From contig JACRCO010000071.1 of NCBI GenBank assembly GCA_016218975.1, positions 83,288 through 147,287 on the forward strand: 64,000 nucleotides of DNA, written 5' to 3'. Positions 45,497 through 64,000 of the stretch are shown here, piece by piece (the stretch's first letter is position 1; every line of letters starts with the position of its first letter). The position numbers and the translations under genes are program-made. Under the pieces are notes generated by a model. It searched no databases. It was not told where the DNA came from and worked only from the letters and a program-made list of their open reading frames with translations. Origin of the DNA: Deltaproteobacteria bacterium. GTDB lineage: Bacteria > Desulfobacterota > Deferrimicrobia > Deferrimicrobiales > Deferrimicrobiaceae.

Positions 45497-45551
45497 TACC
45501 AATTCCGACCAGTGAGCCCTCCCCCCGGGGAGGGCTCCGTTCCACCTTAAA

Positions 45552-49812: not shown

Positions 49813-49833
49813 GCCGTTCTCCCCCACAAGAAG

Positions 49834-50595
49834 TTATCGCTGCCCGGGCACGTAAGTCGGCCGGACCCTGCCCCTGTACGGTCTTTGCTGAAATGCCTCG
49901 GCCGGGCTCCCCGTAAGGCCGGGCGGCGCAACGGATGCGGGAGCCTGCGTCTTTGCCGGGACCGCACCGGCCGACCCCGTGCGAGCGGGCGCAGATACCG
50001 AGTCCGCCCTGATTGGAGCCGGCGGCGGGCGCGTCTGCCCTGCGGAGGCGGGAGACGCCTGCGTCGACGGGAGATCGGTCCGAAGGCCGCCCGTTCCCTG
50101 GACCTTCGGGGCTCCGGCGTACAGGGGCAGCAGGAACTCCTTCCCGTCGGCCTCCAGAAGCACTCCGTCCTGCTGGATCTCCTTCACCACGAATCCGGGC
50201 AGCGTTTCCCCGGGGCTGAGTTCGTACCGCTCAGGCCGTCCGGGAGACTTGCCGGTAACCACGGCCTTCTTCATGTCCCCGAGAAGAAGAACTCCCAGGA
50301 GCGTGAATCGGGATAGTTCTTGATCGTAGTTGCGCGCGGGAACGATCGAGGCGTTTTCCTGGAACGGCCGCCGGTCCGGCCGGAAGACCGGCCTTGCCGT
50401 GATGTACGCCACGGGAGCGGACAGTTCCACCGCCTGCGGGGGATCCTCCGGGGATATGCCGATCGGGGGAACGGCGGGGGCTGAGGGCGGCGGCGGAATC
50501 CCGTAAGCCGGCCCGGTCCAGGCGCGGTATGTCCGCCAGCCGAAGAAGAGCGCGGCAAGCGCCAGCGCGATCATGAGGAATCCCGGCCGCTTCAT
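49834..50595 (-). CDS. T2SS inner-membrane component, GspC/GspN/PilP-like (assignment tentative)
   Basis: 253 aa with one N-terminal TM helix (MKRPGFLMIALALAALFFGW), a small beta-rich domain (RFTLLGVLLLGDMKKAVV...PGFVVKEIQQDGVLL) and a P/A-rich tail. ATGA overlap with the upstream gene. The call relies mainly on its position before gspD. Confidence 0.5.
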   Translation of the reverse strand: MKRPGFLMIALALAALFFGWRTYRAWTGPAYGIPPPPSAPAVPPIGISPEDPPQAVELSAPVAYITARPVFRPDRRPFQENASIVPARNYDQELSRFTLLGVLLLGDMKKAVVTGKSPGRPERYELSPGETLPGFVVKEIQQDGVLLEADGKEFLLPLYAGAPKVQGTGGLRTDLPSTQASPASAGQTRPPPAPIRADSVSAPARTGSAGAVPAKTQAPASVAPPGLTGSPAEAFQQRPYRGRVRPTYVPGQR

Positions 50596-51221
50596 TCTCC
50601 CGGCCTTTCCGCTTTCGCTTCGGCATCGGAGCCTGCGATTCCGGCCACAACGACCGAAGTAACCAGGTTTTCCTTCCGGTTCGCCGTGGTTGCGCCGTAG
50701 TATCCTGAATGGACGGATAATTTCTTCACGCGAAGGATCTTGGGATGCCGCGCCGCTTCGGCAAGCATACGCGCCAGCCCCTCCGTCGTCGTCTGGAAAT
50801 CGATCTGGACCGCCACTTCGGCGTATGATCCCCGCTGCACGGGGGCGAGCGTACGTACGGAAGTGACGCGCGTGTCGGGGCGTTCCAGCCAGGGTTTGAT
50901 CATACCCTGGAGCGCGGAAGCGGAAGCGGCGGGGCTGTCTCCCGGCAAAAGCCCCTCCTCGAGTTCCTCGAGCCGCACGGCCGCATCGGCCAACGCAAGG
51001 TCGATCGTCCCCTCTCCCGCCGCCGCGAGGCGGTAACGAGCGAGAGTCCCCATGCGCTGCGGAACGGCTGACCTGGCTCTTTTGTAGGAATCGACCGCCG
51101 GATACACTCCGATCCGGATCACTGCGAATACGAGGACGAACCCGACTCCAAGGAGCAGGAGGAGCCGCTCTCTCTGGGAGAGGGCGCGAATCCTCGCCTT
51201 GATACGCGCGACGGCGCTCAC
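50592..51221 (-). CDS. gspM: GspM/PilO-like T2SS assembly protein
   Basis: 209 aa, bitopic (LLLLLGVGFVLVFAVIRIG), with a coiled-coil and then an alpha/beta domain. Position between gspL and gspC/N. Confidence 0.55.
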   Translation of the reverse strand: MSAVARIKARIRALSQRERLLLLLGVGFVLVFAVIRIGVYPAVDSYKRARSAVPQRMGTLARYRLAAAGEGTIDLALADAAVRLEELEEGLLPGDSPAASASALQGMIKPWLERPDTRVTSVRTLAPVQRGSYAEVAVQIDFQTTTEGLARMLAEAARHPKILRVKKLSVHSGYYGATTANRKENLVTSVVVAGIAGSDAEAKAERPGE

Positions 51222-52672
51222 GGTTTTTTCCTTGCTTCGGCCGGAGTTTCCGGCGGGACGGGCGAGAATTCCGCCCGGATCTGGAACCGTTCGAGGTTGT
51301 CCGCCTGCCGGGTGATCGGCGATGCGAATTCCACCTTTCGGAACTGCCCGTCCCGTGCGAGAGCCGGAAAGATTTCGTTCGCGGAAGGGGAAAGCCCGTC
51401 AAGCTCGACCTTCAGGTCCTCCATGCGCAGGCCGGTCAGCCATGTGCCCTGAGGCAGGCGTTCCGTCAATTGCCGCAGGACGAGGATCTGCTCCTCTCGG
51501 CCCGCTCTCGCCTCCTTGAGGTATGCGATCCGCCCCTCCAGGTCGCCGAGGATGGCAAGCGTCTCCTCCACCCGCGCCACTTCGGGACGAAGGGATGCTA
51601 TTTCGGCGTCGAGCCGGTCGACTGCCTGCTTCGTGCGCACGGCAACGGATGCAGGCCAGGAAAGCGCCAGGAGAAGGGCGGCCGCGGCGAGCGCGATCGT
51701 GGCGGTACGGGCCGTCGTGCGAAGCCTTTCGCCTTCCTTATCCGGGGAAAGAAGATCCGGGCCCTTTTCGCAAAGCGCAGCGCCCAAAGCGCCCAGCACC
51801 CGCCAGAAACGCGCCGGATCCGCCGCGTCCTCCCCCGGCAACGCCATCGCCGCTGACATCCTGTTCTCGAAACCCTCGACCGGATTTGCGCGTTCCGTTC
51901 CTGCCTGCGGAAAACGACCTTCGCGAATCCACCAGGATGGCGCGTACACGCTCGCTTCCGCCTCGGTGACCGAATCGGGCGCATCTATCAGCGACTCGGA
52001 GAGCAGGTTCAACGCTTCCACGGGGGAACCCTCCGGAGGACAGGCTCTCACCGCGGAGAAGAACGGCTCTCCGCCGGCAATCGCCGTGCATTCAACGCCT
52101 CCGTCCATTTCCCTCAGGACCGCGCAAAGTTTCCCGTCGCTCACCGCCTGCTCCCCGGCCCATCGGCAGGTTTCCGACATCGCCCATCCCGACGGAACGG
52201 CCGCGCCGAGGGAAAGCCCCGCACGGGAAACAAGCTCCTCCCATCGTTCGATATACTCCGAAGAGGCCGCGACGAGGACCAGCCGGACATCCTTTCGGCC
52301 CGCGGCGCCGTCCAGGCGGCGCCAGTTGAATTTCAGCCGGGATGCGGGGACCGGGAAGATCCTGTCCAACTCCAGAGAGAGCGCAGGGCGAAGGTCTTTG
52401 CTCTTCAATGGCGGGAAGGGAATCCTGGCGAGGAAAACCTTTTCGGCAGGGATGGCCAGCCTGGCCTCGCAACCGGCGAGGCCGTTGCGCGCCACGAAAT
52501 CGGCAAGGACGCTCTCGGCTTCCGCCATCCGGATCTGCTCCCTGTCGCCGCGAAGTTCGACAGCCACAGGAGGGACGGCCACCGAGGGACGGCCGACTCC
52601 ATACCGGACTGCCGACAACGCCAGGCGCTTCCCCGAGGGGTCGATGCCCACGACCGTTCGGAAGAGGTTCAT
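51218..52672 (-). CDS. gspL: GspL-like (PilM-PilN-type) T2SS assembly protein
   Basis: 484 aa. Actin-like N-domain (VVGIDPSGKRLALSAV...), a central TM helix (ATIALAAAALLLALSW), and a C-terminal PilN-like coiled-coil and ferredoxin-like region. Confidence 0.6.
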   Translation of the reverse strand: MNLFRTVVGIDPSGKRLALSAVRYGVGRPSVAVPPVAVELRGDREQIRMAEAESVLADFVARNGLAGCEARLAIPAEKVFLARIPFPPLKSKDLRPALSLELDRIFPVPASRLKFNWRRLDGAAGRKDVRLVLVAASSEYIERWEELVSRAGLSLGAAVPSGWAMSETCRWAGEQAVSDGKLCAVLREMDGGVECTAIAGGEPFFSAVRACPPEGSPVEALNLLSESLIDAPDSVTEAEASVYAPSWWIREGRFPQAGTERANPVEGFENRMSAAMALPGEDAADPARFWRVLGALGAALCEKGPDLLSPDKEGERLRTTARTATIALAAAALLLALSWPASVAVRTKQAVDRLDAEIASLRPEVARVEETLAILGDLEGRIAYLKEARAGREEQILVLRQLTERLPQGTWLTGLRMEDLKVELDGLSPSANEIFPALARDGQFRKVEFASPITRQADNLERFQIRAEFSPVPPETPAEARKKP

Positions 52673-52675
52673 CGG

Positions 52676-53590
52676 TCACACCACCTCTTCCAGCGAGAGG
52701 AAGTCCATCCACCGGAGTATTTTCACGGTTTTCGTTCCCGCCCCGGAGACTTCCACCCGGCACTCCACGCCTCTTGCGGTCTTTCCGCCGGCCTTCCCCA
52801 CGGAAGTGATCGTATATACCCGTCCCTGCGGAGAAGTTGTAAATATCGCAGCCGCCGCGGGCGGCACTCCCGCATCCGCAAGATATTCCGCCACCTCCGC
52901 CGGAGACCGGAAGGGATTCTCCTCGCGCCTCGACACGACGGCATCGGCCGCACGGCGAGTGAAGCCCGGGAGCACCCGCAGCAGCGCGGCGGGCGCCGAG
53001 TTGATATCAACCGACGGGGAAGCGCCGTGAACGGTGAACGCTTTCGACAGAAGCCGGACGAAAAGATCCGGCGTCACGCCGTTGACCGAAAGAAGCTCGT
53101 CCACGCTCACGAATTTGCCGTTGCGGATCTTGACGGGTGCGGGCAGGGACGCATAATGGGCATCCTCCGCTCCGTTCGGACGCGGCATATCGTCCGCATC
53201 TCTCCAGTCCAGGATTGAATCTCCTACCCGTTCCGCGTCTTCCGTGGACAGCCCACCGTTTCTCAAGACATCTTTCAACACCGTCTCGGTAACGAAATTG
53301 ACGTCGATCTTTCCGCTTTCGGAGGCGATGCGCGTTTCGTAGGAGGCGTCATCCTCCTCTCCTTTCAGCGGTTCCCTGAGGGCGTTGTCGATGGGAGAAA
53401 CGGAGAGTTGGAAGATCGCGCGATTTACCCCGGTGCGAGCCTGGTAGTAGGCCCGTGCGGAATCGACACCGTTGCGTGCGGCAAGAGCCTCGGTCCGCAT
53501 CGCGAACGAGAAGGACATCGCCATTATCCCCAGCAGAAGCATGGCCCACAGGACGACGAGCTGCGCGATTCCACGCGAGCCGCGCATCAT
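52676..53590 (-). CDS. gspK: Minor pseudopilin GspK
   Basis: 304 aa. The hydrophobic N-terminus lacks Glu5. DSILDWRDADD...GAEDAHY...FVSVDELLSVNGV is GspK-typical. Confidence 0.8.
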   Translation of the reverse strand: MMRGSRGIAQLVVLWAMLLLGIMAMSFSFAMRTEALAARNGVDSARAYYQARTGVNRAIFQLSVSPIDNALREPLKGEEDDASYETRIASESGKIDVNFVTETVLKDVLRNGGLSTEDAERVGDSILDWRDADDMPRPNGAEDAHYASLPAPVKIRNGKFVSVDELLSVNGVTPDLFVRLLSKAFTVHGASPSVDINSAPAALLRVLPGFTRRAADAVVSRREENPFRSPAEVAEYLADAGVPPAAAAIFTTSPQGRVYTITSVGKAGGKTARGVECRVEVSGAGTKTVKILRWMDFLSLEEVV

Positions 53591-54231
53591 GCACCTCCCG
53601 CCGGGAGGGGGATGACCAGCGCGGTTTTCCGGGGACCGCTCTCCGACGGGGTGACGAATTCCACCCTGACGGCTGCCGGCAGGACCTTTTTCTCCTTGCT
53701 GTCCCACGTTTCCACCCATTCCCACTTGCCTTCTTCCGTAGGTCCAGGCGAGTACCCGAAGGCAATTTCGGAGGCTTCGGAGAGCAGAACACGCGGCCGT
53801 TCGTTCCCTTCCCATGGCTCAACACCCTCCGCCCGCAAAGGCGATCCCTCGGATAACATCAATCCGGATGCATTTCGCGAGGAATCTCTTCCAAAAAAAC
53901 AGAGCAGCCGGAAACCGCCGCCGGAAATGGATGAAGGAGCCGCCGCGGAGAGAAACCGGATTTTTCCCCTTTCCCCCCGGAAATAGGATACGGAGATACC
54001 CTCCGAGGGGAGAACCGCCAACGGATCCGCGGACCGTACCGCCCGCTCCAATACCTCCGTTCCAGCGCGCAGTCTCGCCATTGCGGCGGCCTCCTCCCCT
54101 CCGCGCGAAATCGAATGCCCCGCCAGCCGAAACGCAACGGCAAGGAAAGCCGCGATCGCGGCAATGATCGACAGGGACACGACCATCTCAAGGAGGGTGA
54201 ACCCTCCTACGCGCTTCGCGCCGCTATCCAT
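53587..54231 (-). CDS. gspJ: Minor pseudopilin, GspJ-like
   Basis: Prepilin leader MDSGAKRVG|GFTLLEMVVSL. About 200-aa mature protein. Position between I and K. Confidence 0.6.
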   Translation of the reverse strand: MDSGAKRVGGFTLLEMVVSLSIIAAIAAFLAVAFRLAGHSISRGGEEAAAMARLRAGTEVLERAVRSADPLAVLPSEGISVSYFRGERGKIRFLSAAAPSSISGGGFRLLCFFGRDSSRNASGLMLSEGSPLRAEGVEPWEGNERPRVLLSEASEIAFGYSPGPTEEGKWEWVETWDSKEKKVLPAAVRVEFVTPSESGPRKTALVIPLPAGGA

Positions 54232-54709
54232 CGCGTTTCCTTTCCCACCTGGTGGCGGAGACGCTGACCGCGCGATCCCTGCCTCCATCGTCCCATCGTA
54301 CCGTCACCTGGACATGCACCGGCCGGTACGGGCGTCCCTCCTCCTCCGGCAGGAAGGACGTTCGGGCGGTCCAGCGGTACTTTTCCCCGAAGAGCCCGGT
54401 TTCCTCACCCTCCGCGGGCGAAGGAGCGAGCATCGCCTCCTCCAGCCGCTGGGAGGCGTACAGCGATGCGGCATTCGAGTCCCTCGCGCCCCCCGCCAGG
54501 CGCAAGGAGCCCGACAGCAACTCGATCAGCCCCAGCAGTCCCGCGGCAAGAATCGCAAGGGCTACGATCACTTCAAGGAGCGTAAACCCTCCTTCGCGCT
54601 TCGCGCTTCGGAGGGCAGGCTCCCAGCCGCGCTTCGCGCTTCGGAGGGCAGGCCCCCAGTCGCGCTTCGCGCTTCGGAGGGCAAGCCCCGGTTCGCGCTT
54701 CGCGATCAT
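54224..54709 (-). CDS. gspI: Minor pseudopilin, GspI-like, with a 41-aa repeat-expanded leader peptide
   Basis: MIAKRE-[PGLALRSAKRD][WGPALRSAKRG][WEPALRSAKRE]-GG|FTLLEVIVALAIL. About 120-aa mature part. ATG 54709 overlaps the stop of the upstream pseudopilin (ATGA). No alternative in-frame start codon lies nearer the G|F site. Confidence 0.65.
   Translation of the reverse strand: MIAKREPGLALRSAKRDWGPALRSAKRGWEPALRSAKREGGFTLLEVIVALAILAAGLLGLIELLSGSLRLAGGARDSNAASLYASQRLEEAMLAPSPAEGEETGLFGEKYRWTARTSFLPEEEGRPYRPVHVQVTVRWDDGGRDRAVSVSATRWERKRDG
54595..54705 (-). repeat. About 3.4 copies of a 33-bp in-frame tandem repeat within the pseudopilin leader
   Basis: Plus-strand units CGCGCTTCGCGCTTCGGAGGGCA(G/A)G(C)(T/C)CCC.. 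begin at 54595, 54628 and 54661, with a partial unit at 54694. Each unit contains an internal GCGCTTC duplication. Confidence 0.85.
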
Positions 54710-55167
54710 GTGCCCTCCCCGACCATCCCGGTCAGGGGGTCCACCAGAATGCGCACTATTCCTCCGCCCGGGGAGGAGACCGCCACCTCCGCCTCGTCGG
54801 CGCTTCCGTCAGGGCGGAAACGTACGCGGACGACTCCGCGTTCCGCAATCGCGTCCCCGAACCGGACGGTCGCCAGCCGGATGCCTTCCGGCAGCGTCCA
54901 TCTCCGCTCGTCTCCGTCGATGCCGTACTCGCCTTTCCCCAGGTCCAGGGCCACGGAACGCCCCCGGGCCTCCGATACCGCCTGCGTCCGCGCAAGGTTG
55001 AGCGCGGCGCGCACTTCTCCCGCGCTCCCCCGAAGCCGGGCGGATTCGACGGCCCCCGGCAGGGACGGGAGAACCAGGGCCGCGAGCATTCCCATGATCG
55101 CGATCACGAGGATCAGCTCGAGTAGGGAAAATCCTCCCCTTCCGATGTATTTTCCCCGTGCCGTCAA
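54706..55167 (-). CDS. gspH: Pseudopilin, GspH/FimT-like
   Basis: Leader MTARGKYIGRG|GFSLLELILVIAIMGMLAAL, then the ...ARLRGSAGEVRAALNLARTQAV pattern of the GspH family. The TTG start overlaps the gspF TGA (TTGA). Confidence 0.65.
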   Translation of the reverse strand: MTARGKYIGRGGFSLLELILVIAIMGMLAALVLPSLPGAVESARLRGSAGEVRAALNLARTQAVSEARGRSVALDLGKGEYGIDGDERRWTLPEGIRLATVRFGDAIAERGVVRVRFRPDGSADEAEVAVSSPGGGIVRILVDPLTGMVGEGT

Positions 55168-56387
55168 AACGGAACCTCGTTCAGCCGGAATATCGCAAGA
55201 AACATGGAGAAGACGATGAATCCCACAAGGATCCCCATTCCGAGGATCACCGCGGGCTCGAGAAGGACGAGAAACCGCTGGAGCCCCCGTTTCGCGGTGT
55301 CCTCGAAGGCGTCGGCGACGGATGCGAGCATCTCCTCGAGCCGTCCGGTTTCCTCCCCGACGGCGATCATCTGGAGAGCCATTTCCGGTATCGGGGTCGT
55401 CTCCGAAAGCGAACGGGCGACCTTCGCGCCTCCCTGCACGCGGAGACGCGCGGCTTCCATCCCGTCTCGGACTGCGGTATTGCCACTTACTTCCTTCGCT
55501 ATCAGGAAGGCGGAGAGGATGGGAACGCCCCCCGTGAGCAGGGAAGAAAGCGAACGCATGATCCGCGAAGTTTCCATCGCCGTGAGGATCCCTCCCATTC
55601 CCGGCAGGCGCAGCTTCGCCCGGTCCCAGTCCCGCCGGACCTCGGGGCGGCGCAATGCCGCGGAAACCAGGAACCAGGCGAACGCGCCCGCGATAAGAAG
55701 CAGCAGTCCCTGCTCTTTCAGGAACGTGCTCGTGGAAAGAAGGATTTGCGTCGGCATGGGGAGAGCCACACGGGAGGCCGCAAAGACCGCGACGAATCGG
55801 GGAACGACGAATATCAGGAGAAGAATGACGGAGAGGACCGAAGCGCCGAGAAGGATGGACGGGTAAAGAAGCGATCCGATCAGGTTGGACCGGAATTCCC
55901 TGGACCTCGCAAGGAAGAGGCAGACCTGGTCCAGCGCTTCTTCCATGCGTCCCGTGGCCGCCCCGGCGTTGACCATCTGGACCGTGAAGCGGTCGAAGGG
56001 AGCGCCGGGCGCCCGCCTCATCGCGTCGGCCAGGGAACTTCCCGCGCGGACATCCCTGAGGATCTCCGCCGCCGCCGCTCCCATCGGCCTGCCGCGATAC
56101 AGGTCCGAGAGCATTTCCAACGCCCTGTCCACCGGGACACCGGCGACCAGCAGCGTCCGCAAGCCCTGGAGGAACGGAAGGAGGTCGCGTTTCCCTCCTC
56201 TCCACCGGATCGCTGCCGGGGCCTCCGCCGATGATTTCGCGGCAGCAGGCGTAGCGGGCCACACCCGGATCGGCTGGAAACCCTTTTCCCGAAGCTGTTC
56301 CGCGGCAACCCGTTCTTCGGCCGCCTCGACCATCCCTTCGGAGACGCGACCCGTGCGGTCGGCAGCCCGGTATCCGAACACCGCCAT
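55164..56387 (-). CDS. gspF: T2SS inner-membrane platform protein
   Basis: 407 aa with the duplicated GspF/PilC domain architecture (LRTLLVAGVPVDRALEML..., SLSSLLTGGVPILSAFLIA...), polytopic. Confidence 0.9.
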   Translation of the reverse strand: MAVFGYRAADRTGRVSEGMVEAAEERVAAEQLREKGFQPIRVWPATPAAAKSSAEAPAAIRWRGGKRDLLPFLQGLRTLLVAGVPVDRALEMLSDLYRGRPMGAAAAEILRDVRAGSSLADAMRRAPGAPFDRFTVQMVNAGAATGRMEEALDQVCLFLARSREFRSNLIGSLLYPSILLGASVLSVILLLIFVVPRFVAVFAASRVALPMPTQILLSTSTFLKEQGLLLLIAGAFAWFLVSAALRRPEVRRDWDRAKLRLPGMGGILTAMETSRIMRSLSSLLTGGVPILSAFLIAKEVSGNTAVRDGMEAARLRVQGGAKVARSLSETTPIPEMALQMIAVGEETGRLEEMLASVADAFEDTAKRGLQRFLVLLEPAVILGMGILVGFIVFSMFLAIFRLNEVPF

Positions 56388-56425
56388 CTTGATGACCCCC
56401 GTTATTCCCGCGGACCCGCGCCGGA

Positions 56426-58132
56426 TCAACCGCCGCGCGTCACCCGGAGCACTTCCTCGATCGTGGTGATCCCGCGCCGGGTTTTCTCCCAGCCGTCTTC
56501 CCTGAGAAGCGTCATCCCGCGCGCGACTGCGCGTTCCCGGATCGCTCCGGCGTCGGCACGGGCCAGGATCAGGTCCTTTATCTCCTCGTCGAAGGGTAGC
56601 AGCTCGAAGATCCCCATCCGTCCGCGATAGCCGGTGCCGCCGCAGGCGTCGCATCCCGCACCGATGCGCAGGTCGCCGTCGGGCGCGAATCCCGTCTCCC
56701 GCAGGACCTCCTCGCGGAACGCGGCCGAGATCGCTCTCGGCGATGAACACCGTTCGCAGATCGTCCGAACGAGCCGTTGGGCAAGCACCCCGACGAGCGA
56801 TGAAGGAAGCAGGTACTCCTCCACGCCCATCTCCAGCAGGCGCGTTACGGCGCCGGCTGCGTCATTCGTATGCAGGGTGGAAAGCACAAGATGCCCGGTG
56901 AGCGCGGAGTGGATGGCGATCTCGGCGGTCTCCCGGTCGCGGATCTCCCCCACCAGGATCACGTCGGGGTCCTGCCGGACGATGGACCGAAGGCCCGAGG
57001 CGAACGTCAGCCCGATCTGGGGCTTTACCTGGATCTGGTTCACGCCGGAGATCTGGTACTCGACCGGGTCCTCGATGGTGATGATCTTCCGCGCGGCGCT
57101 CTTGATCTCCTGCAGGGCGCCGTAAAGCGTCGTCGTCTTTCCGCTTCCCGTGGGACCGGTCACCAGGATCATCCCGTGCGGAACGCCCGCCATACGCCTG
57201 AAGCGTTCAAGCGTATCCTCCGGGAATCCCAGGCGGCCCAGGTTCAGCGGGACGGAGGACTGGTCCAGGATCCGGATTACGACGCTCTCGCCGAACAGTG
57301 TGGGGACTGTGGACACGCGGAAGTCGATCTCCTGCCCGCCGATACGGAGCTTCACCCGTCCGTCCTGCGGCAGGCGGCTCTCGGCGATGTTCAGCCGTGC
57401 CATGATCTTTATCCGCGACAGGATCGCCGTCTGGAGCCGCTTGGGCGGCGCCTCGACGTCTTCCAGCATCCCGTCGATGCGGTACCGGACTCGCAACGTT
57501 TTTTCGTACGGCTCAAGGTGGATATCGCTCGCTCCCCGCTCGATCCCCCGCGCGAGGATGAAGTTCACAAGGCGGATGATGGGTGCCTCGGAGGCTGCGC
57601 CGATCAGCCGCTCGACCCGCTCGTCGCCGCCGGCGCGCTCCTCTCCCTCCTCTCCCACCTGCTCGACCAGCCGCTCCATCGAAGAGGCGCTCTCTCCGCA
57701 CAATTTCTCGATCGCCTCGCGGATCTCCTCCTCCGTTCCGGCCTGGACCTCGACGCGGCGGCCCGTTGCCTTGGCGACCGCCTCCCGGGTGTCGACGTCC
57801 AGCGGGTCCGACATTGCCACGGTAAGCGTTCCGTCGGAGAGAGATACCGGGACGATCAGTTTCGCGCGAAGGAACGGCAGGGGCAGGAGGTCCGGCGGAA
57901 CCTGCCGCATCCCATCGACATCACGGAGGAAAGGAGGGATGCCGCAGATGGTTTCATAGGCGCGCCGAAGCGCCTCGGGGTTGAGGATTCCCCGGGCCAG
58001 GAGAGCTTTCGGGAAAGCGGCGCCCGCCGTCCGCGCAAGGTCGAGCAGCGTTTCCCGCTCCCCCTCCGGGACGGTAAGGGAGGAAACGAGCATTTCCTGG
58101 AAGGAACGTCGATTCATCCTTTTCACCGCCAC
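56426..58132 (-). CDS. gspE: T2SS ATPase
   Basis: 568 aa. Walker A GPTGSGKTTT, Asp/His boxes, and a tetracysteine motif (CERC...CDACGGTG). The start is ambiguous (GTG 58132 or ATG 58117). Confidence 0.9.
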   Translation of the reverse strand: MAVKRMNRRSFQEMLVSSLTVPEGERETLLDLARTAGAAFPKALLARGILNPEALRRAYETICGIPPFLRDVDGMRQVPPDLLPLPFLRAKLIVPVSLSDGTLTVAMSDPLDVDTREAVAKATGRRVEVQAGTEEEIREAIEKLCGESASSMERLVEQVGEEGEERAGGDERVERLIGAASEAPIIRLVNFILARGIERGASDIHLEPYEKTLRVRYRIDGMLEDVEAPPKRLQTAILSRIKIMARLNIAESRLPQDGRVKLRIGGQEIDFRVSTVPTLFGESVVIRILDQSSVPLNLGRLGFPEDTLERFRRMAGVPHGMILVTGPTGSGKTTTLYGALQEIKSAARKIITIEDPVEYQISGVNQIQVKPQIGLTFASGLRSIVRQDPDVILVGEIRDRETAEIAIHSALTGHLVLSTLHTNDAAGAVTRLLEMGVEEYLLPSSLVGVLAQRLVRTICERCSSPRAISAAFREEVLRETGFAPDGDLRIGAGCDACGGTGYRGRMGIFELLPFDEEIKDLILARADAGAIRERAVARGMTLLREDGWEKTRRGITTIEEVLRVTRGG

Positions 58133-58282: not shown

Positions 58283-59566
58283 TCAAGGAACGGGAATGAT
58301 GAACACGTCGAAGAAGCCTCCGGTGTCCCCCGATGCGATGGCGGGATCGTCGGTGCCGAAAGCCGCGACGAGGCCGTCACCGCTGATATCCGCCCCGGCG
58401 GACTGCATGGTGGCGGCAATGCCTGCAAGGAAGGTCGTCGTGCCCGCCGCGCGGTTGCGCACGAAATAGCCGGGCGAGCCCGTCCCGCCGAGGTTCGTCG
58501 CGTCGGATTCGAAGATGATACGGTTGCCGTCGTCGCTTATCGCCTTGTGCCCCAGGGCGAAGGAAGCCCCGTTCGATTGCGCGCCGCCCGTAGCCACGCT
58601 AACCCGCTCGGCCGTTCCCGTCAGCATGTCGTAAACGAAGACGTCGCTTACCGCATTGTTATCACCCGCCACCAGGTCCGTGGCGTCCGAATCGAACACT
58701 ACGAACCGGCCGTTTCCGCTGATCCCTGAGATCCGGCTGTCACCGTTGCCCGCGGTTATCGCCACGGCGGGCCCGGGGGAAGTCCAGACGAAGATCTGTC
58801 TCAGCGCACCGCCGGGAGGAGACTCGAAAGCCACCCGCGTCCCGTTATCGCTTACGCAGTGGCCGAAGAGGGCGCCGCCGGCCGCGCCGCTGATGCGTGT
58901 CGTCGTGCCGGCAGCCCTGTTATACAGAAACACGTCCGCGATCCCGTTGGTGTCCCCCGCCACGAGGTTCGTTGCCAGCGACTGGAACGCGACGAAGTTC
59001 CCGTCTCCGCTGATGGAAGGCTTGTTGCTGTCTCCGTCCGGCTGCGTGGGCAGACCCAAGGCGGCCACGCTGACGCGCGTCGTCGTGTTGAAGTCCCTGT
59101 CCTGGACGAAGATGTCGGATTTCAGGTTTGTGTCGACACCCGCCCCCACCAGGTTCTCCGCCCTCGATTCGAACGCGACGAAGCGACCGCTCGAACTGAT
59201 GGAGGGGAAGAAGCTCGAGTCGTCGGCGTTCGAGACCTTCAGGCTGAAGGTCCCGTTGATCCGGCTGGCGACCGTTATGTCCGCCGTCTGCCGGTCGTAG
59301 ACGAAGATGTCGTAACTCGAATTGTTGTCGTTCCCCGCGCCGGTAAGGTCGGAGGCAAGGGACGAGAATGCGACGAAGCGGCCGGTCTGGCTCATAGCGA
59401 TCCCGAGGTCGCCGCTGTTGTTGTTGCCGCCGACCCTGGTGACGCCGCTGAAGAAGGACGTCCCGCCGCCGCCCCCTCCTCCGCCGCCGCAGCCGGCCAG
59501 GCCGAGTGCGGAGATTACGACCGCCGCCAGAAACCAGCTCCATTTGCCAATGCTTTCTCGTCTCAT
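58283..59566 (-). CDS. Lipoprotein with PD40/TolB-like beta-propeller repeats
   Basis: Lipobox LAGC followed by a nine-Gly linker. About 7 repeats of S(I/L)SG(D/N)GRFVAF.S.A.(N/D)LV.GD.N...D(V/I)F(V/L).(D/N). Confidence 0.8.
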   Translation of the reverse strand: MRRESIGKWSWFLAAVVISALGLAGCGGGGGGGGGTSFFSGVTRVGGNNNSGDLGIAMSQTGRFVAFSSLASDLTGAGNDNNSSYDIFVYDRQTADITVASRINGTFSLKVSNADDSSFFPSISSSGRFVAFESRAENLVGAGVDTNLKSDIFVQDRDFNTTTRVSVAALGLPTQPDGDSNKPSISGDGNFVAFQSLATNLVAGDTNGIADVFLYNRAAGTTTRISGAAGGALFGHCVSDNGTRVAFESPPGGALRQIFVWTSPGPAVAITAGNGDSRISGISGNGRFVVFDSDATDLVAGDNNAVSDVFVYDMLTGTAERVSVATGGAQSNGASFALGHKAISDDGNRIIFESDATNLGGTGSPGYFVRNRAAGTTTFLAGIAATMQSAGADISGDGLVAAFGTDDPAIASGDTGGFFDVFIIPVP

Positions 59567-59582: not shown

Positions 59583-60032
59583 TTACTGGACGGTCAGATT
59601 CTCGAACCGATGCTCTCCGATCACCACCGTAACCTTGTCCCCCGGGGAAACCTCGTACCCGGCGGCGTTGAACAATATGAAATAGGTGCGGCCCGTTTCC
59701 GGCCTCAGCGTGTTCTGCCGCAATCTGCCCACTCTCGTCTCCGGAACGTTCAGTTTCGCTCCCGTGGCATGGTGAACCAGGTAGGCGGGCGTACCGCGCA
59801 ACAGCAAGGGAGCCGCCTTCTCCGGGTCGATTACCCGATACCGGAAATCGAGCATCCGTCCCGCAACCGTCCTCCGCAGACTGACGGGTTCCACTCCCGA
59901 CCGGTCCTCTACACGGAGCGCCGGGGCTTCCTTCGCGGCGGCCGGTGGAGCTTTCGGCGCAGTCGCGCAACCCACGGCCAGGACGGCGGTTATCGCCGCT
60001 GCGGCGATGTGTATGCGATATTTCCATGACAT
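59583..60032 (-). CDS. Small lipoprotein of unknown function
   Basis: 149 aa with lipobox LAVGC, a P/A-rich linker, then a beta-rich domain. No family recognised. Confidence 0.55.
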   Translation of the reverse strand: MSWKYRIHIAAAAITAVLAVGCATAPKAPPAAAKEAPALRVEDRSGVEPVSLRRTVAGRMLDFRYRVIDPEKAAPLLLRGTPAYLVHHATGAKLNVPETRVGRLRQNTLRPETGRTYFILFNAAGYEVSPGDKVTVVIGEHRFENLTVQ

Positions 60033-60048: not shown

Positions 60049-61725
60049 TTACGGAAATGGAACCGGGGCCGTGGCGGACCCGCCTGCGCCCGTCACCGTC
60101 ACCGTGTCGGGCTTCGCCGGAAGCCGCATAACTTCCGCCTCGTAAAGGTCGAGCCCCGAGCGATAGACCAGCGGCACGGGTGCGGAGGCGCCAGGCCACG
60201 TGACGGTCATGCTGTCCGTGCCCGCGGCGGCGCCGGAGGTCGCCCGCACGATCAGGCGCTCTCCTCCGACGAAGTCGGTGCTGACGATCGCCAGAGGAGT
60301 GGTTGCGCCCACCACCGCCGATGTAACGGGAACAGGGGGCGACCAGTTCCCCTCGGAATCCTGGCTGCGGATCCAGATGGTGTTGTCGGCGGGGATCGCC
60401 GAGGTCGGGACGTACGCCGCAAGATCGCTTACCGCGGCAGTTCCGAACGTCCCCGTCATCGGGTTTCCATATCCCTCCCGAACGGTTTTATCCGAAATCC
60501 ACTCGGCCGCCACGACGTTGCTGTTGCCGGTGGCGCTGTCGTCCGCCGTCGCGGCGAGAACAACAGGGGATATACCCGAGGAAGGATCGAACGAAGCAGG
60601 CGCGGTGACCGGTCCCGTCACGTCGGCCCCCTGCACCCCCAGGAACGTGAGATAGCCGCCGGGATATGCCCCGTTATTGTTCACGTAGAGCCGCCGGTCG
60701 ACGACCGGGACTTTCTTCGCCGGGGCCGAAGGCACCAAAAGGACGTCCTTGGTCTTACCCGGGGGAAGGAATACGGTATGGTGCCTCCCCGGGTAGGGGA
60801 GAAGGTTTCCGTCCTCGCCGATGACCGATACATAGGTATTCATGAAAGACGGAGCGTGCGCATTCAGGTCCGCGTTCAGGAATCGGAGGAGGGTCCCGTT
60901 GCCGCCCGGAGGTCCGATCGGCAGCGGGTCATGATGATTGACAAGAGGATCCACCTGGTTTTGATACGGCTTCCCGTTGACAAGGAAATACTTCGGCTCG
61001 TATTCGAACGTGGTGGGGAGGACATCGGTGCCGTAAGTATTATCGACTACCGCGTTGTGAAGGAACGGGTCGATCGCGCTGTAGAGGAGCACGAGTTCGT
61101 TATCGAAAGTCGTGTTCGGGTTCGTGGCAGTCGGCGGATAAGCCTGCGCCGGATCCGCAGGGCGCACGATCAGTGCGCCGTAGATCCCCATCTGGACCTG
61201 GACGGAGGGGTCGGCGCCGCTTTGATAGAGGAACGTCCCCGATTTCGACAGCGTGAACCGGTAAGTACGCGTGCCGTTGTCGGCGGGCGTCATCTGCGTG
61301 AAGGAGACGACCCGCGGCGGCAGGGAGACGTTGTCCACGACCGGGGTGACGAAAACCGGCCCCTGCTGGGCAAGGGGCGTTCCCGGAGGGTTCTCCACGA
61401 CCGGCATTCCGAGTCCGGGGATGACCAGAGAAATCCCGTTCCCTGTCCCGATGACTGTGTTGTCGGAAGGCAACTCGTTGATCAGAGTGACAACCAGGTC
61501 GTCTCCCACGGTCCCGACGAGCGTGGGGCCGGGGAACCCGAGGACGTTGTCCGTGCCCGCATTGGCGATCTTCCAGACGGGGATGACCGCATTGTCCGGC
61601 ATTACGGCGTTATCCGCCGCCACCCGCAGGGTATAGGTCACCGAGGAAGCGACTCCCGCCGTGGCCGCAAGGAACGCCGCAGCCAGGAGGACCACCCCGA
61701 TTTTTCTGAGCGCATGAGTACGCAT
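60049..61725 (-). CDS. Ligand-less cupredoxin pair with a C-terminal Ig-like extension (protein C', paralog of C)
   Basis: 558 aa. GPTLVGTVGDDLVVTLINEL...GTFLYQSGADPSVQVQMGIYGALIVRP parallels protein C. No HxH or HCH motifs. Confidence 0.8.
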   Translation of the reverse strand: MRTHALRKIGVVLLAAAFLAATAGVASSVTYTLRVAADNAVMPDNAVIPVWKIANAGTDNVLGFPGPTLVGTVGDDLVVTLINELPSDNTVIGTGNGISLVIPGLGMPVVENPPGTPLAQQGPVFVTPVVDNVSLPPRVVSFTQMTPADNGTRTYRFTLSKSGTFLYQSGADPSVQVQMGIYGALIVRPADPAQAYPPTATNPNTTFDNELVLLYSAIDPFLHNAVVDNTYGTDVLPTTFEYEPKYFLVNGKPYQNQVDPLVNHHDPLPIGPPGGNGTLLRFLNADLNAHAPSFMNTYVSVIGEDGNLLPYPGRHHTVFLPPGKTKDVLLVPSAPAKKVPVVDRRLYVNNNGAYPGGYLTFLGVQGADVTGPVTAPASFDPSSGISPVVLAATADDSATGNSNVVAAEWISDKTVREGYGNPMTGTFGTAAVSDLAAYVPTSAIPADNTIWIRSQDSEGNWSPPVPVTSAVVGATTPLAIVSTDFVGGERLIVRATSGAAAGTDSMTVTWPGASAPVPLVYRSGLDLYEAEVMRLPAKPDTVTVTGAGGSATAPVPFP

Positions 61726-61743: not shown

Positions 61744-63126
61744 CTACGGGATGTCCACCCCGGGGGGTATGATGACCATGAAGGTCATGATCCCGCCGGG
61801 GAAAACGTCGTTGTTGGTCATTTCCTTCTCGGAGTGCGAATGCCAGATCTGGAAGAAGGCGCCGTTCGTGTTGAATTTCCCGAACCCGGGCGGGAGTGCG
61901 CCCAACTGACCCAGGAACGGGCTGCCGCTGAAGAAATCTCCCGCCGAGAGGTCATCCTGTTCCGGTATCCCGACCGGAAACGGCTTGCCGTGGTCCGCAC
62001 ACCACTCGGAAGTGACCGGATCGAACCCTTGTGCGTTCGGCGCGCAGTCGTGCGCCGTCAAGGGATCGTTCGGGTCGCCGTAGACGTCCCAGCCCAGGGC
62101 CTTGCCCGTCCATTCGAATGTCGAGTCCGACGTCCGGCCCGGGACCGTCGTCACGGTAAAGGCCAACTCACCGAGATCGGCGCCCACGTTGGCGAAATCG
62201 GCGGGATCGCTGGTCAGGGGCATCGCGTCCCATGCGATGACGCGAGTATGGTTGGAATGCGGGTGGAAGGGGTGCTGGTCCCTTCCCATCGATATGAGGC
62301 GTATGAGAGACTTCTCGCCCGGGTGCATCATGGGCAGCGCATTATACGGCTGGTGGGGGAGATAGGACGCGCCCGCCGCCCCCATGGTATCGGGCGAGTT
62401 GCGCCCGTTGATGAACCAGTAGACGGGGAAGAATGTGGTCGTGTCGATTTCTTCCCCCCTCTCCACCTGGTTGTGGTACCGGTCGTCCATCTCGCTCAGG
62501 ATGAACAGGAACTCCCGGCCCGCGGTGTAAGCGGAAGAGGATTCGCCGTATGCCGTCGGGGCGGCGGGGTTGAAGACCGCCGGCCGGACGATGATCGCCC
62601 CGAAGAGCCCCATTTCTAACTGCTTGTCCATGTTCGTCCCGCTCTGGTAGTAGAAGGTCCCCGGCCTGCCTGCCACGAAGGTGTAGGTGACGGTGCTCTG
62701 TCCTCCCGGCGGCGCCTCCCAGGTGAAGATCCCGCGGATACCGTTGTTGTCCGAGGGCGTGGCGGTAACGCTGTCCATCCCGGGGAAGAGAAGCGAAACC
62801 GGATCGGGGAGCCAGTTCCTGAGCGTAACGGTGACGGTGTCCCCCTCATTGACGATCAGGGTGGGGCCGGGGTACTGGACCGAAACGGTCCCCGAGGGCG
62901 GGTTTCCGTCGGCGTAGCCCCAGAAGAACAGGTTGTTGCCGTCGCCGTTCTGTATGTAGTCGCTCGCGGCGACCAGTGAGAAGGAGGTCCCCGTCAATCC
63001 CGGGATCTCCGCTCCGGCCGGGACGGCGAAAAAGAGGGCCGAGGCAAGGACACAGAGAACCCCCATCCCGATTTTCCTGCTTGGCGTCCAGCGCATGGCG
63101 TTCCTCCCCGTGCCGAAGGTCTTCAT
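61744..63126 (-). CDS. Two-domain cupredoxin protein B' (paralog of B)
   Basis: 460 aa. HPFHPH (nt 62257-62274) and WHSH (nt 61834-61845). The N-domain is ligand-less (LLFPGM, FYYQSGT...EMGLFGAIIVRP). Confidence 0.85.
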   Translation of the reverse strand: MKTFGTGRNAMRWTPSRKIGMGVLCVLASALFFAVPAGAEIPGLTGTSFSLVAASDYIQNGDGNNLFFWGYADGNPPSGTVSVQYPGPTLIVNEGDTVTVTLRNWLPDPVSLLFPGMDSVTATPSDNNGIRGIFTWEAPPGGQSTVTYTFVAGRPGTFYYQSGTNMDKQLEMGLFGAIIVRPAVFNPAAPTAYGESSSAYTAGREFLFILSEMDDRYHNQVERGEEIDTTTFFPVYWFINGRNSPDTMGAAGASYLPHQPYNALPMMHPGEKSLIRLISMGRDQHPFHPHSNHTRVIAWDAMPLTSDPADFANVGADLGELAFTVTTVPGRTSDSTFEWTGKALGWDVYGDPNDPLTAHDCAPNAQGFDPVTSEWCADHGKPFPVGIPEQDDLSAGDFFSGSPFLGQLGALPPGFGKFNTNGAFFQIWHSHSEKEMTNNDVFPGGIMTFMVIIPPGVDIP

Positions 63127-64000
63127 GGAGCGGATATGCGGATCTCGGTCATCATTCCGCCGAACCGCTCCTCGAAATTGTTCAGGTGGCCAAGTTCACG
63201 TGCGTAGATGAAGTAGGTGCCCGGAGCGATGCCCGTCGTGTCCAGGATGGCGTCGGCCGTCTGCCCGCCTCCGAGGCTCACCGAGTTCGTCTGATAGAAC
63301 ATGTTCGTCCCCGTGGAACTCCGAAGGATCTTGGCGTCCTTGCCGACCACGGTCATCGGGATCCCCAGGACCTCGATGTTATGGAAAGACGTCGAAGAGA
63401 GGCTCGAGATCCGGAGAAGGACCTTCTGCCCGGCCGTCGCCTCGATCAGCGCGCTCATCCTCTGCGAAGGCTTTCCGTCCGGGTTGAACGGGTCCGGGTT
63501 CAGGGGAACTCCGTCCCTGTCGACGGGGGCGGGAATCGCATCCCTGCCAAGCGTCGTGTCCGGGTAACCGCGCCCGTTGAACATAGAGTAGGTGTCCTTC
63601 ATACTGGCGAACGGGAGCGGCTGTACGGCTATGTGTTTGTCGTGGAAGTTCTGGTCGAATCCAACGATCTGGAGCGGGTAATCGACGTCGTAGCACGTCG
63701 ATCCGTCGCCATCCGTGAAGACGTATTTCTGCGAAGCGCATCCCCCGACTGTGCTGCCGTCCTGCGCCGGGAGGACGTAGAGGTTTCCGAGCATCCCCAT
63801 CTGCATGTGCTCGGTCGCCTCCACGTGGCAGTGCCACATGTACGTGCCGGCGCTGTCGCCGTCAGGCGGACCCACCTGGTGATAGAAGTAGGTGAAGCTT
63901 GCCCCGGGAACGGCCACGGTCGATGCGTCCGGCACGCCGTCGAAGATCGGGGCCGCGTTCGGGAAGCCGTGGTAATGGACCGAATGGGGGTCGAACAGGT
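63123..64000 (-). CDS. Two-domain cupredoxin protein A' (paralog of A), 5' end beyond the window
   Basis: The reading frame continues to the window edge. FDPHSVHYHGFPNA (HSVHYH at nt 63969-63986) and TYMWHCHVEATEHMQMGM (HCH at nt 63825-63833). ATGA overlap with B'. Confidence 0.85.
   Translation of the reverse strand, partial: LFDPHSVHYHGFPNAAPIFDGVPDASTVAVPGASFTYFYHQVGPPDGDSAGTYMWHCHVEATEHMQMGMLGNLYVLPAQDGSTVGGCASQKYVFTDGDGSTCYDVDYPLQIVGFDQNFHDKHIAVQPLPFASMKDTYSMFNGRGYPDTTLGRDAIPAPVDRDGVPLNPDPFNPDGKPSQRMSALIEATAGQKVLLRISSLSSTSFHNIEVLGIPMTVVGKDAKILRSSTGTNMFYQTNSVSLGGGQTADAILDTTGIAPGTYFIYARELGHLNNFEERFGGMMTEIRISAP

What the first reader, a model, noticed from the sequence alone, without database searches (positions are those of the whole stretch)
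61744..64000. A second, inverted A'/B' pair preserves the same ligand partition
The paralogs on the minus strand keep the split exactly. A' has HSVHYH and WHCHVEATEHMQMGM. B' has HPFHPH and WHSH, again with Ser rather than Cys, and a ligand-less N-domain. Elsewhere the paralogs have diverged substantially. Around the HCH motif, however, the DNA is still highly similar: compare 38928-38984 with the reverse complement of 63790-63846 (ACCTACATGTACCACTGCCACGTGGAGGCGACCGAGCATATGGAAATGGGCATGCT versus ACGTACATGTGGCACTGCCACGTGGAGGCGACCGAGCACATGCAGATGGGGATGCT). Retention of every putative ligand in two diverged copies argues for selection on a functional, partitioned metal site rather than pseudogenised MCO remnants.
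Basis: seen in the sequence. Interest (0 to 1): 0.72.

Follow-up and report, generated by a model that had tools for sequence, protein, structure and literature searches.

The report
Split copper oxidase, second operon copy
The minus-strand genes are an intact second copy of a very widespread operon in which the copper-binding residues of a multicopper oxidase are divided between two neighbouring proteins. The oxygen-reducing copper cluster can therefore probably form only where the two proteins meet.

Summary
A' (63123 to the window end, minus strand) carries HSVHYH and WHCHVEATEHMQMGM. B' (61744-63096/63126) carries HPFHPH and WHSH, and its N-domain has no ligands. A' is not truncated: the full 444-aa protein from the same contig is P0121.

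The pair belongs to a conserved cassette, Big-A-B-C-D. Scanning one genome per species found it in at least 574 stretches. In the 80 loci fetched, B follows A in all 78 with enough sequence. All eight A ligands are 100% conserved. The six B motif residues, including the Ser that replaces Cys, are 99-100% conserved. All genes are under purifying selection (dN/dS 0.1-0.3 against orthologs).

A, B and C are mutual paralogs. A' and B' fold like homotrimeric two-domain multicopper oxidases. A keeps only the domain-1 half-site (type-1 copper plus four His), B keeps only the domain-2 half-site (four His), and C keeps nothing.

The best reading is an obligate heteromer with one trinuclear cluster at the A/B interface, probably an A-C-B six-domain ring. 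It is likely secreted, because a type II secretion operon follows cluster 2. The assembly itself is inferred, not shown.

A and A' are ancient paralogs, not a recent duplication. Two Sideroxydans papers noted the gene triad, but I found no description of a split site.

The parts
63123..64000 (-). A' is a two-cupredoxin-domain protein, cut at its 5' end by the window edge. The full protein is P0121 (444 aa), with 153 aa lying beyond the window. Domain 1 carries the type-1 copper set (H, C, H, M) plus four His for the trinuclear cluster: HSVHYH at 63969-63986 and WHCHVEATEHMQMGM at 63792-63836. Domain 2 has no ligands.
   Evidence: The AlphaFold2 model has pLDDT 85.5, and its best PDB matches are the two-domain multicopper oxidases 3g5w and 2zwn (TM 0.73-0.74 normalised by target length).
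61744..63126 (-). B' is a two-cupredoxin-domain paralog. Public gene calls start it at 63096 (450 aa); the longest ORF starts at 63126 and overlaps the A' stop codon by 4 nt. Domain 1 has no ligands. Domain 2 carries HPFHPH at 62257-62274 and WHSH at 61834-61845, with Ser in place of the type-1 Cys.
   Evidence: The AlphaFold2 model has pLDDT 84.4, and its best PDB matches are 9cck, 2zwn and 3g5w.
60049..61725 (-). C' is the third paralog (558 aa). It has two cupredoxin-like domains with no copper ligands, followed by a C-terminal extension.
59583..60032 (-). D is a small conserved protein (149 aa) with a lipoprotein-like N-terminus. It is the fifth cassette gene. It has no Pfam or NCBIfam match and no conserved His or Cys.
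   Evidence: found in 56-63 of the fetched loci.
58283..59566 (-). E is a PD40/TolB-like beta-propeller protein (427 aa). It was found only in the A'-type cassette.
47386..58132 (-). A type II secretion operon lies directly downstream of A'B'C'DE. It encodes the E ATPase, the F platform protein, pseudopilins, K, a PilN-like protein, a GspB-like protein and the GspD secretin.
   Evidence: The same arrangement occurs in the ortholog locus L082.
33105..38438 (+). Big (1777 aa) is the first gene of cluster 1. It is a secreted giant protein with SdrD_B and carboxypeptidase-regulatory-like domains and a beta-helix-like region. In many other lineages it is fused to A.
38457..39620 (+). A (387 aa) is the cluster-1 counterpart of A'. 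HSLHWH lies at 38802-38819 and YHCHVEATEHMEMGM at 38934-38978.
39636..41033 (+). B (465 aa) is the cluster-1 counterpart of B'. HPFHLH lies at 40461-40478 and WHSH at 40932-40943.
41052..43328 (+). C (758 aa) is the cluster-1 counterpart of C'. It has ligand-free cupredoxin domains followed by Big_9/cadherin-like domains and a weak polysaccharide-lyase-like match.
29524..33081 (+). A sensor kinase, a sigma-54 response regulator and a single-domain response regulator lie upstream of cluster 1. The same trio precedes both ortholog cassettes elsewhere.

Best explanation
A'-B'-C' (followed by D, E and a type II secretion operon) is an intact, selected second copy of a widespread operon, Big-A-B-C-D. 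The operon appears to encode a secreted, heteromeric relative of the two-domain multicopper oxidases (2dMCOs).

In ordinary 2dMCOs one chain carries both half-sites. Three identical chains form a ring of six cupredoxin domains, and a trinuclear copper cluster forms at each chain-chain interface, between domain 1 of one chain and domain 2 of the next.

Here the ancestral gene has been triplicated and the ligands divided:
- A/A' keeps only the domain-1 half: the type-1 copper ligands His-Cys-His-Met plus four cluster His.
- B/B' keeps only the domain-2 half: four cluster His, with Ser in place of Cys.
- C/C' keeps nothing.

The proposed mechanism is as follows. A single type-1 copper plus trinuclear cluster is assembled at the A(domain 1)/B(domain 2) interface. 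Electrons enter at the type-1 copper of A and pass through the His-Cys-His bridge to the shared cluster, where O2 is reduced. C most likely closes the ring as the third, catalytically silent subunit, giving the cyclic order A-C-B.

Steps that are shown: the motifs, their invariance, the synteny, purifying selection, the two-domain oxidase fold of A' and B', and the paralogy of A, B and C.

Steps that are inferred: the heteromeric assembly, the role of C, copper occupancy, secretion, and the substrate. The substrate is possibly Fe(II) or mineral-bound metal, based on published Sideroxydans proteomics.
For: - **Motifs and integrity.** Motifs are present and A' is full length.
- **Paralogy.** A, B and C are 25-29% identical over both domains. 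Each matches two-domain oxidases or nitrite reductases in the PDB by sequence.
- **Fold.** The A' and B' models (pTM 0.86 and 0.85) best match the homotrimeric two-domain oxidases 3g5w, 2zwn, 9cck and 7rab, with TM about 0.71-0.75 normalised by target length.
- **Partition.** Domain-1 motifs are HxxHxHG and YHCHVEAtEHMQMGM in A only. B and C read vS.vFPG and YhSGT there. Domain-2 motifs HPFHhHG and WHSH occur in B only, and the second is deleted in A and C.
- **Invariance.** A H116, H119, H121, H161, C162, H163, H169 and M174 are 100% conserved in 82 sequences. B H276, H279 and H281 are 100% and H434, S435 and H436 are 99% conserved in 77 sequences. C has no conserved ligand set.
- **Wider family.** More distant A-like proteins (38-45% identity) also carry HxH/HCH motifs only at domain-1 positions.
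- **Co-occurrence.** At least 574 stretches, from a collection holding one genome per species, encode an A relative. In 78 of 78 fetched loci with enough downstream sequence, B follows A, and C then follows wherever the locus extends far enough. The median A-to-B gap is 20 nt and the B-to-C gap 18 nt.
- **Selection.** dN/dS is 0.11-0.32 for every cassette gene against orthologs.
- **Copper and secretion context.** A SCO1/SenC copper chaperone gene lies downstream in a Gallionellaceae locus. A full type II secretion operon follows cluster 2 here and in ortholog L082.
- **Literature.** A likely equivalent cluster in Sideroxydans ES-1 (three tandem oxidase genes) is predicted to be extracellular (PMC5566968). 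Slit_1816-1818 are co-induced on magnetite (PMC12016527). Two-domain oxidases form their trinuclear sites at interfaces between units (PMC11761707).
Against: - No direct test of the complex was possible.
- No natural A-B or B-A fusion was seen in 80 loci or among 150 cluster representatives, whereas Big-A fusions are common.
- Many hosts are named as taxa usually regarded as anaerobes (Desulfobulbaceae, Geobacter, Thermodesulfovibrio, Syntrophobacterales). An O2-reducing enzyme is not obviously useful to them.
- Additional invariant residues are unexplained: A H228, B H276/H381/E438/E440, and a D-x3-H motif shared by A, B and C. They could indicate a non-canonical metal site.
- In the Sideroxydans proteome the three proteins show unequal abundance percentiles (PMC12016527).
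- Cluster 1 in this window has no D gene of its own.
Confidence: 0.65

Rival explanations
1. A and B form the shared copper site as a heterodimer or other A/B oligomer. C is not part of the catalytic ring. Instead C acts as a separate adhesin or scaffold whose degenerate cupredoxin domains serve another purpose.
For: C and C' are the least conserved of the three (37% identity; dN/dS 0.28 for C). C carries variable C-terminal Ig, cadherin or lyase-like modules. C length varies from 195 to 2672 aa among loci.
Against: C is a full two-domain paralog of A and B. It follows B at a median of 18 nt in 60 loci. Known two-domain oxidases close a six-domain ring with three chains, and an A/B pair alone leaves the ring open (established knowledge of 2dMCO structures such as 3g5w and 2zwn).
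Confidence: 0.2
2. A and B work independently. A would be a type-1 copper electron-transfer protein or a non-canonical oxidase, for example as a homotrimer using its four His plus the invariant H228. B would bind copper or another metal for a separate role. The complementarity of their motifs would be coincidental.
For: Invariant residues outside the canonical set exist: A H228, and B H276, H381, E438 and E440. No A-B fusion was found.
Against: HxH plus HCH in A and HxH plus HSH in B are exactly the two halves of one trinuclear site as seen in the homologs 3g5w and 2zwn. Neither protein keeps the other half in about 80 species. The two genes are never found apart in the fetched loci.
Confidence: 0.12
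3. The minus-strand genes are decaying remnants of multicopper oxidase genes, or a recent duplicate kept similar to the first copy by gene conversion.
For: The local DNA identity peaks at the HCH motif (49 of 56 bases). There is a marginal excess of synonymous identity there (P=0.04).
Against: The reading frames are intact and A' is full length. dN/dS is 0.18-0.32 against the orthologs in L082. Cluster 2 has its own orthologous cassette, including the secretion operon, in another metagenome. A' is among the most distant relatives of A, and dS between them is about 2.
Confidence: 0.02

Closest known systems
Homotrimeric two-domain multicopper oxidases with the type-1 copper in domain 1 ('type C' 2dMCOs): Nitrosomonas europaea blue copper oxidase (PDB 3g5w) and the metagenomic laccase mgLAC (PDB 2zwn)
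   Same: These are the best sequence and fold matches for A/A' and B/B'. All have two cupredoxin domains. The Cys-to-His loop in domain 1 has the same length (HCHVNVNEH against HCHVEATEH). Domain 2 carries HxxHxH and an H-x-H without Cys (HDH against HSH).
   Different: In the known enzymes one chain carries both half-sites, and three identical chains form three trinuclear clusters. Here each half-site survives in a different paralog and a third paralog has none. At most one cluster per A/B(/C) unit is therefore possible, and a heteromer is required.
Ceruloplasmin and hephaestin (six cupredoxin domains in one chain)
   Same: If A-C-B forms a ring, the result is six cupredoxin domains with a single trinuclear cluster at one domain interface. 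This is the same overall logic as ceruloplasmin (established knowledge; not tested here).
   Different: Ceruloplasmin is one polypeptide, is eukaryotic and has three type-1 sites in the even-numbered domains. Here there would be three polypeptides and one type-1 site in a domain-1-type position. No direct homology beyond the cupredoxin fold was tested.
The 'three tandem MCO/cupredoxin genes' of Sideroxydans lithotrophicus ES-1 (Slit_1816-1818, within Slit_1812-1818)
   Same: The published description fits. Two proteins have oxidase motifs. A third, larger protein has none and carries adhesin and lyase-like domains. A SCO1/SenC gene and a cytochrome gene lie nearby. The proteins are predicted to be extracellular (PMC5566968, PMC12016527). 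A related Gallionellaceae locus fetched here (L030) shows A-B-C-D, then a subtilase, then SCO1/SenC.
   Different: The Slit sequences themselves were not compared here. Those papers treat the proteins as separate oxidases of unknown function and do not describe a partitioned copper site or a heteromer.
Mnx manganese oxidase complex of Bacillus (MnxG with MnxE and MnxF)
   Same: It is a multi-subunit multicopper oxidase complex that oxidises a metal outside the cell (cited in PMC12016527).
   Different: MnxG alone holds all the catalytic copper ligands, and MnxE/F are small accessory subunits. Here the catalytic cluster itself would be shared between two subunits.
Geobacter OmpB and Leptothrix MofA
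   Same: These are extracellular multicopper proteins. [quoted passage not shown] Cluster 2 here is followed by a type II secretion operon.
   Different: OmpB and MofA are single large oxidases and are described as not homologous to the tandem trio (PMC5566968).

Membership tests
Canonical single-chain multicopper oxidase (laccase/CueO type) | All four copper motifs (HxHG, HxH, HxxHxH, HCHxxxHxxxxM) lie in one polypeptide | tested here: not met
   A/A' have only HxxHxH plus HCH..H..M. B/B' have only HxxHxH plus HSH. NCBIfam equivalog scores are 14-43 bits against cut-offs of 296-950.
Two-domain multicopper oxidase (2dMCO) | Two cupredoxin domains with the 2dMCO fold | tested here: met
   The AlphaFold2 models of A' and B' (pTM 0.86 and 0.85) best match 3g5w, 2zwn, 9cck, 7rab and 3gdc, with TM 0.71-0.75 normalised by target length.
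Two-domain multicopper oxidase (2dMCO) | Each chain carries trinuclear-cluster His pairs in both domain 1 and domain 2, so a homotrimer forms three clusters | tested here: not met
   Domain 2 of A and domain 1 of B lack the His motifs in 82 and 77 sequences respectively. C lacks all of them.
Two-domain multicopper oxidase (2dMCO) | A type-1 copper site (His, Cys, His, Met) is wired to the cluster through His-Cys-His | tested here: met
   This holds for A and A' only: H116, C162, H169 and M174, together with H161 and H163, are invariant. B and B' have Ser at the Cys position (99% conserved).
Two-domain multicopper oxidase (2dMCO) | Trimeric ring quaternary structure with interfacial clusters | not testable with these tools
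Copper nitrite reductase (NirK) | A type-2 site with His ligands, His-Cys not followed by His, and the NirK equivalog score | tested here: not met
   The motif is HCH, which is the oxidase type. TIGR02376 scores 16-37 bits against a cut-off of 296.
Big-A-B-C-D cassette (the conserved operon defined here; probably the Sideroxydans 'three tandem MCO' cluster) | Gene order is A, then B, then C, on one strand with short gaps | tested here: met
   In the window, A'-B'-C' run from 63998 down to 60049 and A-B-C from 38457 to 43328. In 78 of 78 loci with room, B follows A, with median gaps of 20 and 18 nt.
Big-A-B-C-D cassette (the conserved operon defined here; probably the Sideroxydans 'three tandem MCO' cluster) | A giant Big protein lies upstream of A, or is fused to it | tested here: inconclusive
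   This is met for cluster 1 (33105-38438). For cluster 2 the upstream region lies beyond the window. The ortholog L082 has a 1763-aa Big gene directly upstream of its A'.
Big-A-B-C-D cassette (the conserved operon defined here; probably the Sideroxydans 'three tandem MCO' cluster) | Sequence identity with Slit_1816-1818 | not tested
The equivalence rests on the published description and on the related locus L030.

The most novel reading that the evidence does not exclude
The cassette encodes an obligate 1:1:1 A-C-B heterotrimer: a ring of six cupredoxin domains with a single type-1 copper plus trinuclear cluster. It would be tethered to, or in many lineages fused with, a giant beta-helix/adhesin protein. 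It would be exported by a dedicated type II secretion system and used to oxidise mineral-bound or dissolved metals such as Fe(II) or Mn(II) at the cell surface. Such an enzyme would resemble, in separate subunits, the six-domain single-cluster layout of ceruloplasmin. It would also be a very widespread but unrecognised enzyme type.
Probability: 0.35. Interest if true: 0.8.

Novelty: new variant of a known kind. Interest (0 to 1): 0.6.

Why it matters
In the descriptions I found, the trinuclear cluster of a multicopper oxidase is built either within one chain or between identical chains. A family in which the cluster must be built between two different gene products, with a third silent paralog, would be a clear case of subfunctionalisation of a metal site. 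It would also be a natural model for how six-domain, single-cluster oxidases could arise.

The family is large. Thousands of proteins were found, and at least 574 stretches in the one-genome-per-species collection, spread across Desulfobacterota, Nitrospirota, Acidobacteriota, Gammaproteobacteria, Planctomycetota and others. It includes iron oxidisers in which the likely equivalent proteins are induced on magnetite.

Current annotation calls each gene 'multicopper oxidase domain-containing protein', or even 'manganese oxidase'. That wording hides the likelihood that neither protein can be an oxidase on its own. Anyone expressing A or B alone would probably obtain an inactive protein.

Tried and rejected
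- **Recovering the contig beyond the window.**
  - The 460-aa B' is not on record.
  - C' and the 450-aa B' were found only on a 6.1-kb Logan contig that also starts inside A'.
  - An exact 60-mer from the window end gave no match in the metagenome collection.
  - The full A' was finally obtained as protein P0121 from a protein search.
- **Predicting the complex.**
  - A chimeric query aligned with separate A and B homologs was mis-aligned by MAFFT, which placed the B homologs on the A part.
- **Looking for fusions.**
  - Apparent 700-811-aa 'B' ORFs turned out to be artefacts of start-codon choice in GC-rich DNA, or B with unrelated C-terminal domains.
  - P0374 and P0356 are A with unrelated C-terminal repeats and are not A-B fusions.
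- **OmpB/MofA identity.** Considered and rejected: those are single large oxidases, and the literature states the trio is not homologous to them.
- **The JGI name 'manganese oxidase' on some B homologs.** Not followed further. I took it to be an automatic label.
- **Sigma-54 promoter scan.** One near-consensus site lies at 32643-32657, upstream of the small response regulator and Big genes. The window-wide count is no higher than chance.
- **Gene conversion at the HCH motif.** Only marginal support.
Full report
**1. What is at the coordinates**

On the minus strand the window ends inside an open reading frame, A' (63123 to the window end). It reads LFDPHSVHYHG ... TYMWHCHVEATEHMQMGM and runs on without a stop or frameshift to its stop codon at 63123. 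Three genes follow on the same strand:
- B' (61744-63126; public gene calls start at 63096),
- C' (60049-61725),
- a 149-aa gene, D (59583-60032).

B' contains DQHPFHPHS and IWHSHSEKE. Its N-terminal domain reads SLLFPG and YYQSGT at the positions where A has its His motifs.

The plus strand holds the counterparts A (38457-39620), B (39636-41033) and C (41052-43328), preceded by a 1777-aa ORF, here called Big. Amino-acid identities are 53% for A/A', 46% for B/B' and 37% for C/C'.

They match at 49 of 56 bases, against 63% identity gene-wide.

**2. Is A' intact?**

The contig beyond the window could not be fetched. A protein search with the A' fragment returned a 100% identical, 444-aa protein from the same 155,674-bp contig (P0121). 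It has a signal-peptide-like N-terminus, and its last 291 residues equal the window translation.

**3. What the proteins are**

Pfam sees only weak multicopper-oxidase domains in all six proteins. NCBIfam equivalog scores are far below their cut-offs.

The best PDB sequence matches of A and B are the two-domain multicopper oxidases 3g5w and 2zwn. The matches of C are nitrite reductases and a related two-domain protein. A, B and C are 25-29% identical to one another across both domains.

AlphaFold2 models of A' and B', built on alignments of 66 and 73 homologs, are confident (pLDDT 85.5 and 84.4; pTM 0.86 and 0.85). Their best structural matches are again the two-domain oxidases 3g5w, 2zwn, 9cck, 7rab and 3gdc, with TM 0.71-0.75 normalised by target length. 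These enzymes are homotrimers whose trinuclear clusters form at the interface between two units (PMC11761707, and established knowledge of 3g5w and 2zwn).

**4. The partition is a property of the whole family**

Scanning one genome per species found at least 574 stretches that encode an A relative. They span Desulfobacterota, Nitrospirota, Acidobacteriota, Gammaproteobacteria (including Gallionellaceae, Thiobacillus and Rhodoferax), Planctomycetota, Hydrogenedentes, Myxococcota and others. Protein searches found more than 6,000 A-like and more than 7,600 B-like proteins.

In the 80 fetched loci:
- B follows A in all 78 that have room, and C then follows wherever the locus extends far enough.
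- D usually follows C.
- Big lies upstream, or downstream in a few loci (mostly Acidobacteriota).
- Median gaps are 20 nt from A to B and 18 nt from B to C.

| Family | Sequences | Ligand positions | Background |
|---|---|---|---|
| A | 82 | H116, H119, H121, H161, C162, H163, H169, M174 all 100% | 77 of 387 positions reach 98% |
| B | 77 | H276, H279, H281 100%; H434, S435, H436 99% | 57 of 465 positions reach 98% |
| C | 63 | no conserved ligand set | not applicable |

A joint alignment of the three families shows the pattern directly:
- Domain-1 motifs are HxxHxHG and YHCHVEAtEHMQMGM in A, against vS.vFPG and YhSGT...Q.(E/Q)MGL in B and C.
- Domain-2 motifs are HPFHhHG and WHSH in B. They are absent or deleted in A and C.

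Even A-like proteins at 38-45% identity carry HxH/HCH motifs only at domain-1 positions. The second refutation criterion therefore fails as well.

**5. Selection and history**

Against their nearest orthologous cassettes (L083 for cluster 1, L082 for cluster 2) every gene shows purifying selection. dN/dS values are A 0.11, B 0.22, C 0.28, Big 0.15, A' 0.21, B' 0.29, C' 0.18, D 0.27 and E 0.32.

A and A' are not recent duplicates:
- dS between them is about 2.
- A' ranks 96th of 97 among A's relatives.
- Their common ancestor spans the whole neighbour-joining tree.
- Each has its own clade of orthologs at 72-88% identity.

The peak of DNA identity at the HCH motif follows from 17 of 19 identical residues, four of them Met. 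Synonymous identity is 9 of 13 against 6.1 expected from codon usage (P=0.04). This gives no real case for gene conversion.

**6. Surroundings**

Cluster 2 continues with a PD40/TolB-like protein (58283-59566) and then a complete type II secretion operon (47386-58132). The ortholog L082 has the same order and shows what probably lies beyond the window: sensor kinase, sigma-54 regulator, small response regulator, Big' (1763 aa), then A'.

Cluster 1 has the same regulatory trio upstream (29524-33081). Downstream lie a small Big_9 protein and a protein with Ig-like repeats and a C-terminal CxxCH haem motif.

Big is fused to A in one reading frame in 6 of the 80 loci and in many cluster representatives of 1,366-2,816 aa. 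No A-B fusion was found. A Gallionellaceae locus carries a SCO1/SenC copper chaperone gene downstream.

**7. Mechanism**

- *Shown:* the motif partition, its invariance, the obligatory co-occurrence of A and B, selection on every gene, and the two-domain oxidase fold.
- *Inferred:* A lacks the domain-2 half-site and B lacks the domain-1 half-site. Neither can therefore form a trinuclear cluster as a homo-oligomer. The only complete site is between domain 1 of A and domain 2 of B.
- *Electron path:* by analogy with the homotrimeric relatives, electrons would enter at the type-1 copper of A and pass through His-Cys-His to the shared cluster, where O2 is reduced.
- *Role of C:* the ring geometry of two-domain oxidases needs three chains. 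C, a ligand-free full-length paralog that is always present, is the natural third subunit, giving the cyclic order A-C-B.
- *Location:* secretion through the adjacent type II system and attachment to Big are plausible but untested.
- *Substrate:* unknown. Published proteomics in Sideroxydans show the likely equivalent trio induced on magnetite (PMC12016527).

Direct tests of the complex were blocked.

**8. Comparison with what is known**

The closest homologs are two-domain oxidases with the type-1 copper in domain 1. The proteins here meet the fold criterion and, for A, the type-1 criterion. They fail the defining 'both half-sites in one chain' criterion. They are not canonical three-domain oxidases and not nitrite reductases.

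He et al. 2017 noted the gene trio as 'three tandem MCO-coding genes', predicted extracellular and of unknown function (PMC5566968). Keffer et al. 2025 noted 'cupredoxins', two with oxidase motifs and one without (PMC12016527). Full-text searches for heteromeric, heterotrimeric or heterodimeric multicopper oxidases found nothing that describes a split cluster.

**9. Verdict**

The second copy is one instance of a family-wide rule and not special in itself. The underlying feature, a multicopper oxidase site divided between two gene products with a silent third paralog, appears undescribed and is widespread. I rate it a new variant of a known kind, with interest 0.6.

Noticed in passing
L031:3794-11032, also L041, L042, L055, L065, L071; representatives P0353, P0354, P0361, P0365 and others: In several phyla the giant Big protein and A form one polypeptide of 2,100-2,800 aa, with A at the C-terminus. 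This links the copper protein physically to the beta-helix/adhesin scaffold.
   Followed up: partly
window 38457-43328 (+): A, B and C of cluster 1 all lie in the same reading frame. They are separated only by a stop codon plus 5 codons (after A) and two stop codons plus 5 codons (after B).
   Followed up: no
A H228 (window about 39138-39140), B H200, C H197: A D-x3-H motif at the start of domain 2 is conserved in all three paralog families (100%, 96% and 97%). No known copper-ligand role explains it.
   Followed up: no
B H276, H381, E438, E440 (B' equivalents near 62272-62274, 61990-61992 and 61822-61833): B keeps the His that would be the type-1 ligand, although its Cys is replaced by Ser. 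It also has invariant Glu residues just after HSH and an invariant His in a CxDHG motif. Together these could form a different metal or substrate site.
   Followed up: no
window 43337-43753 (+): A small secreted protein with a Big_9/cadherin-like domain (138 aa) lies just after C. Its gene sits inside a longer ORF that overlaps the end of C. The same small gene is called in the ortholog locus L083.
   Followed up: partly
window 44057-45496 (+): This protein has three near-identical Ig-like repeats and a C-terminal CxxCH haem-binding motif. It resembles the MofC-like cytochrome described next to such clusters in the literature.
   Followed up: partly
window 41052-47138 compared with 59583-60032: Cluster 1 has no D gene of its own in the window, although its ortholog L083 has one. 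The only D copy belongs to cluster 2.
   Followed up: partly
window 32643-32657 (+): TGGCACTACTCTTGA is a near-consensus sigma-54 -24/-12 element. It lies between the sigma-54 regulator gene and the small response regulator and Big genes. The window-wide count of such sites is no higher than chance.
   Followed up: partly
window 33105-38438, residues about 1166-1209: The beta-helix part of Big gives a weak match (E=0.001, far below the cut-off) to NosD, the maturation protein for the copper centre of nitrous oxide reductase.
   Followed up: no
B' model, residues about 371-440: The C-terminal segment that carries WHSH has low confidence in the monomer model (pLDDT 43-61). This would fit a region that becomes ordered only at a subunit interface or with copper bound.
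   Followed up: no
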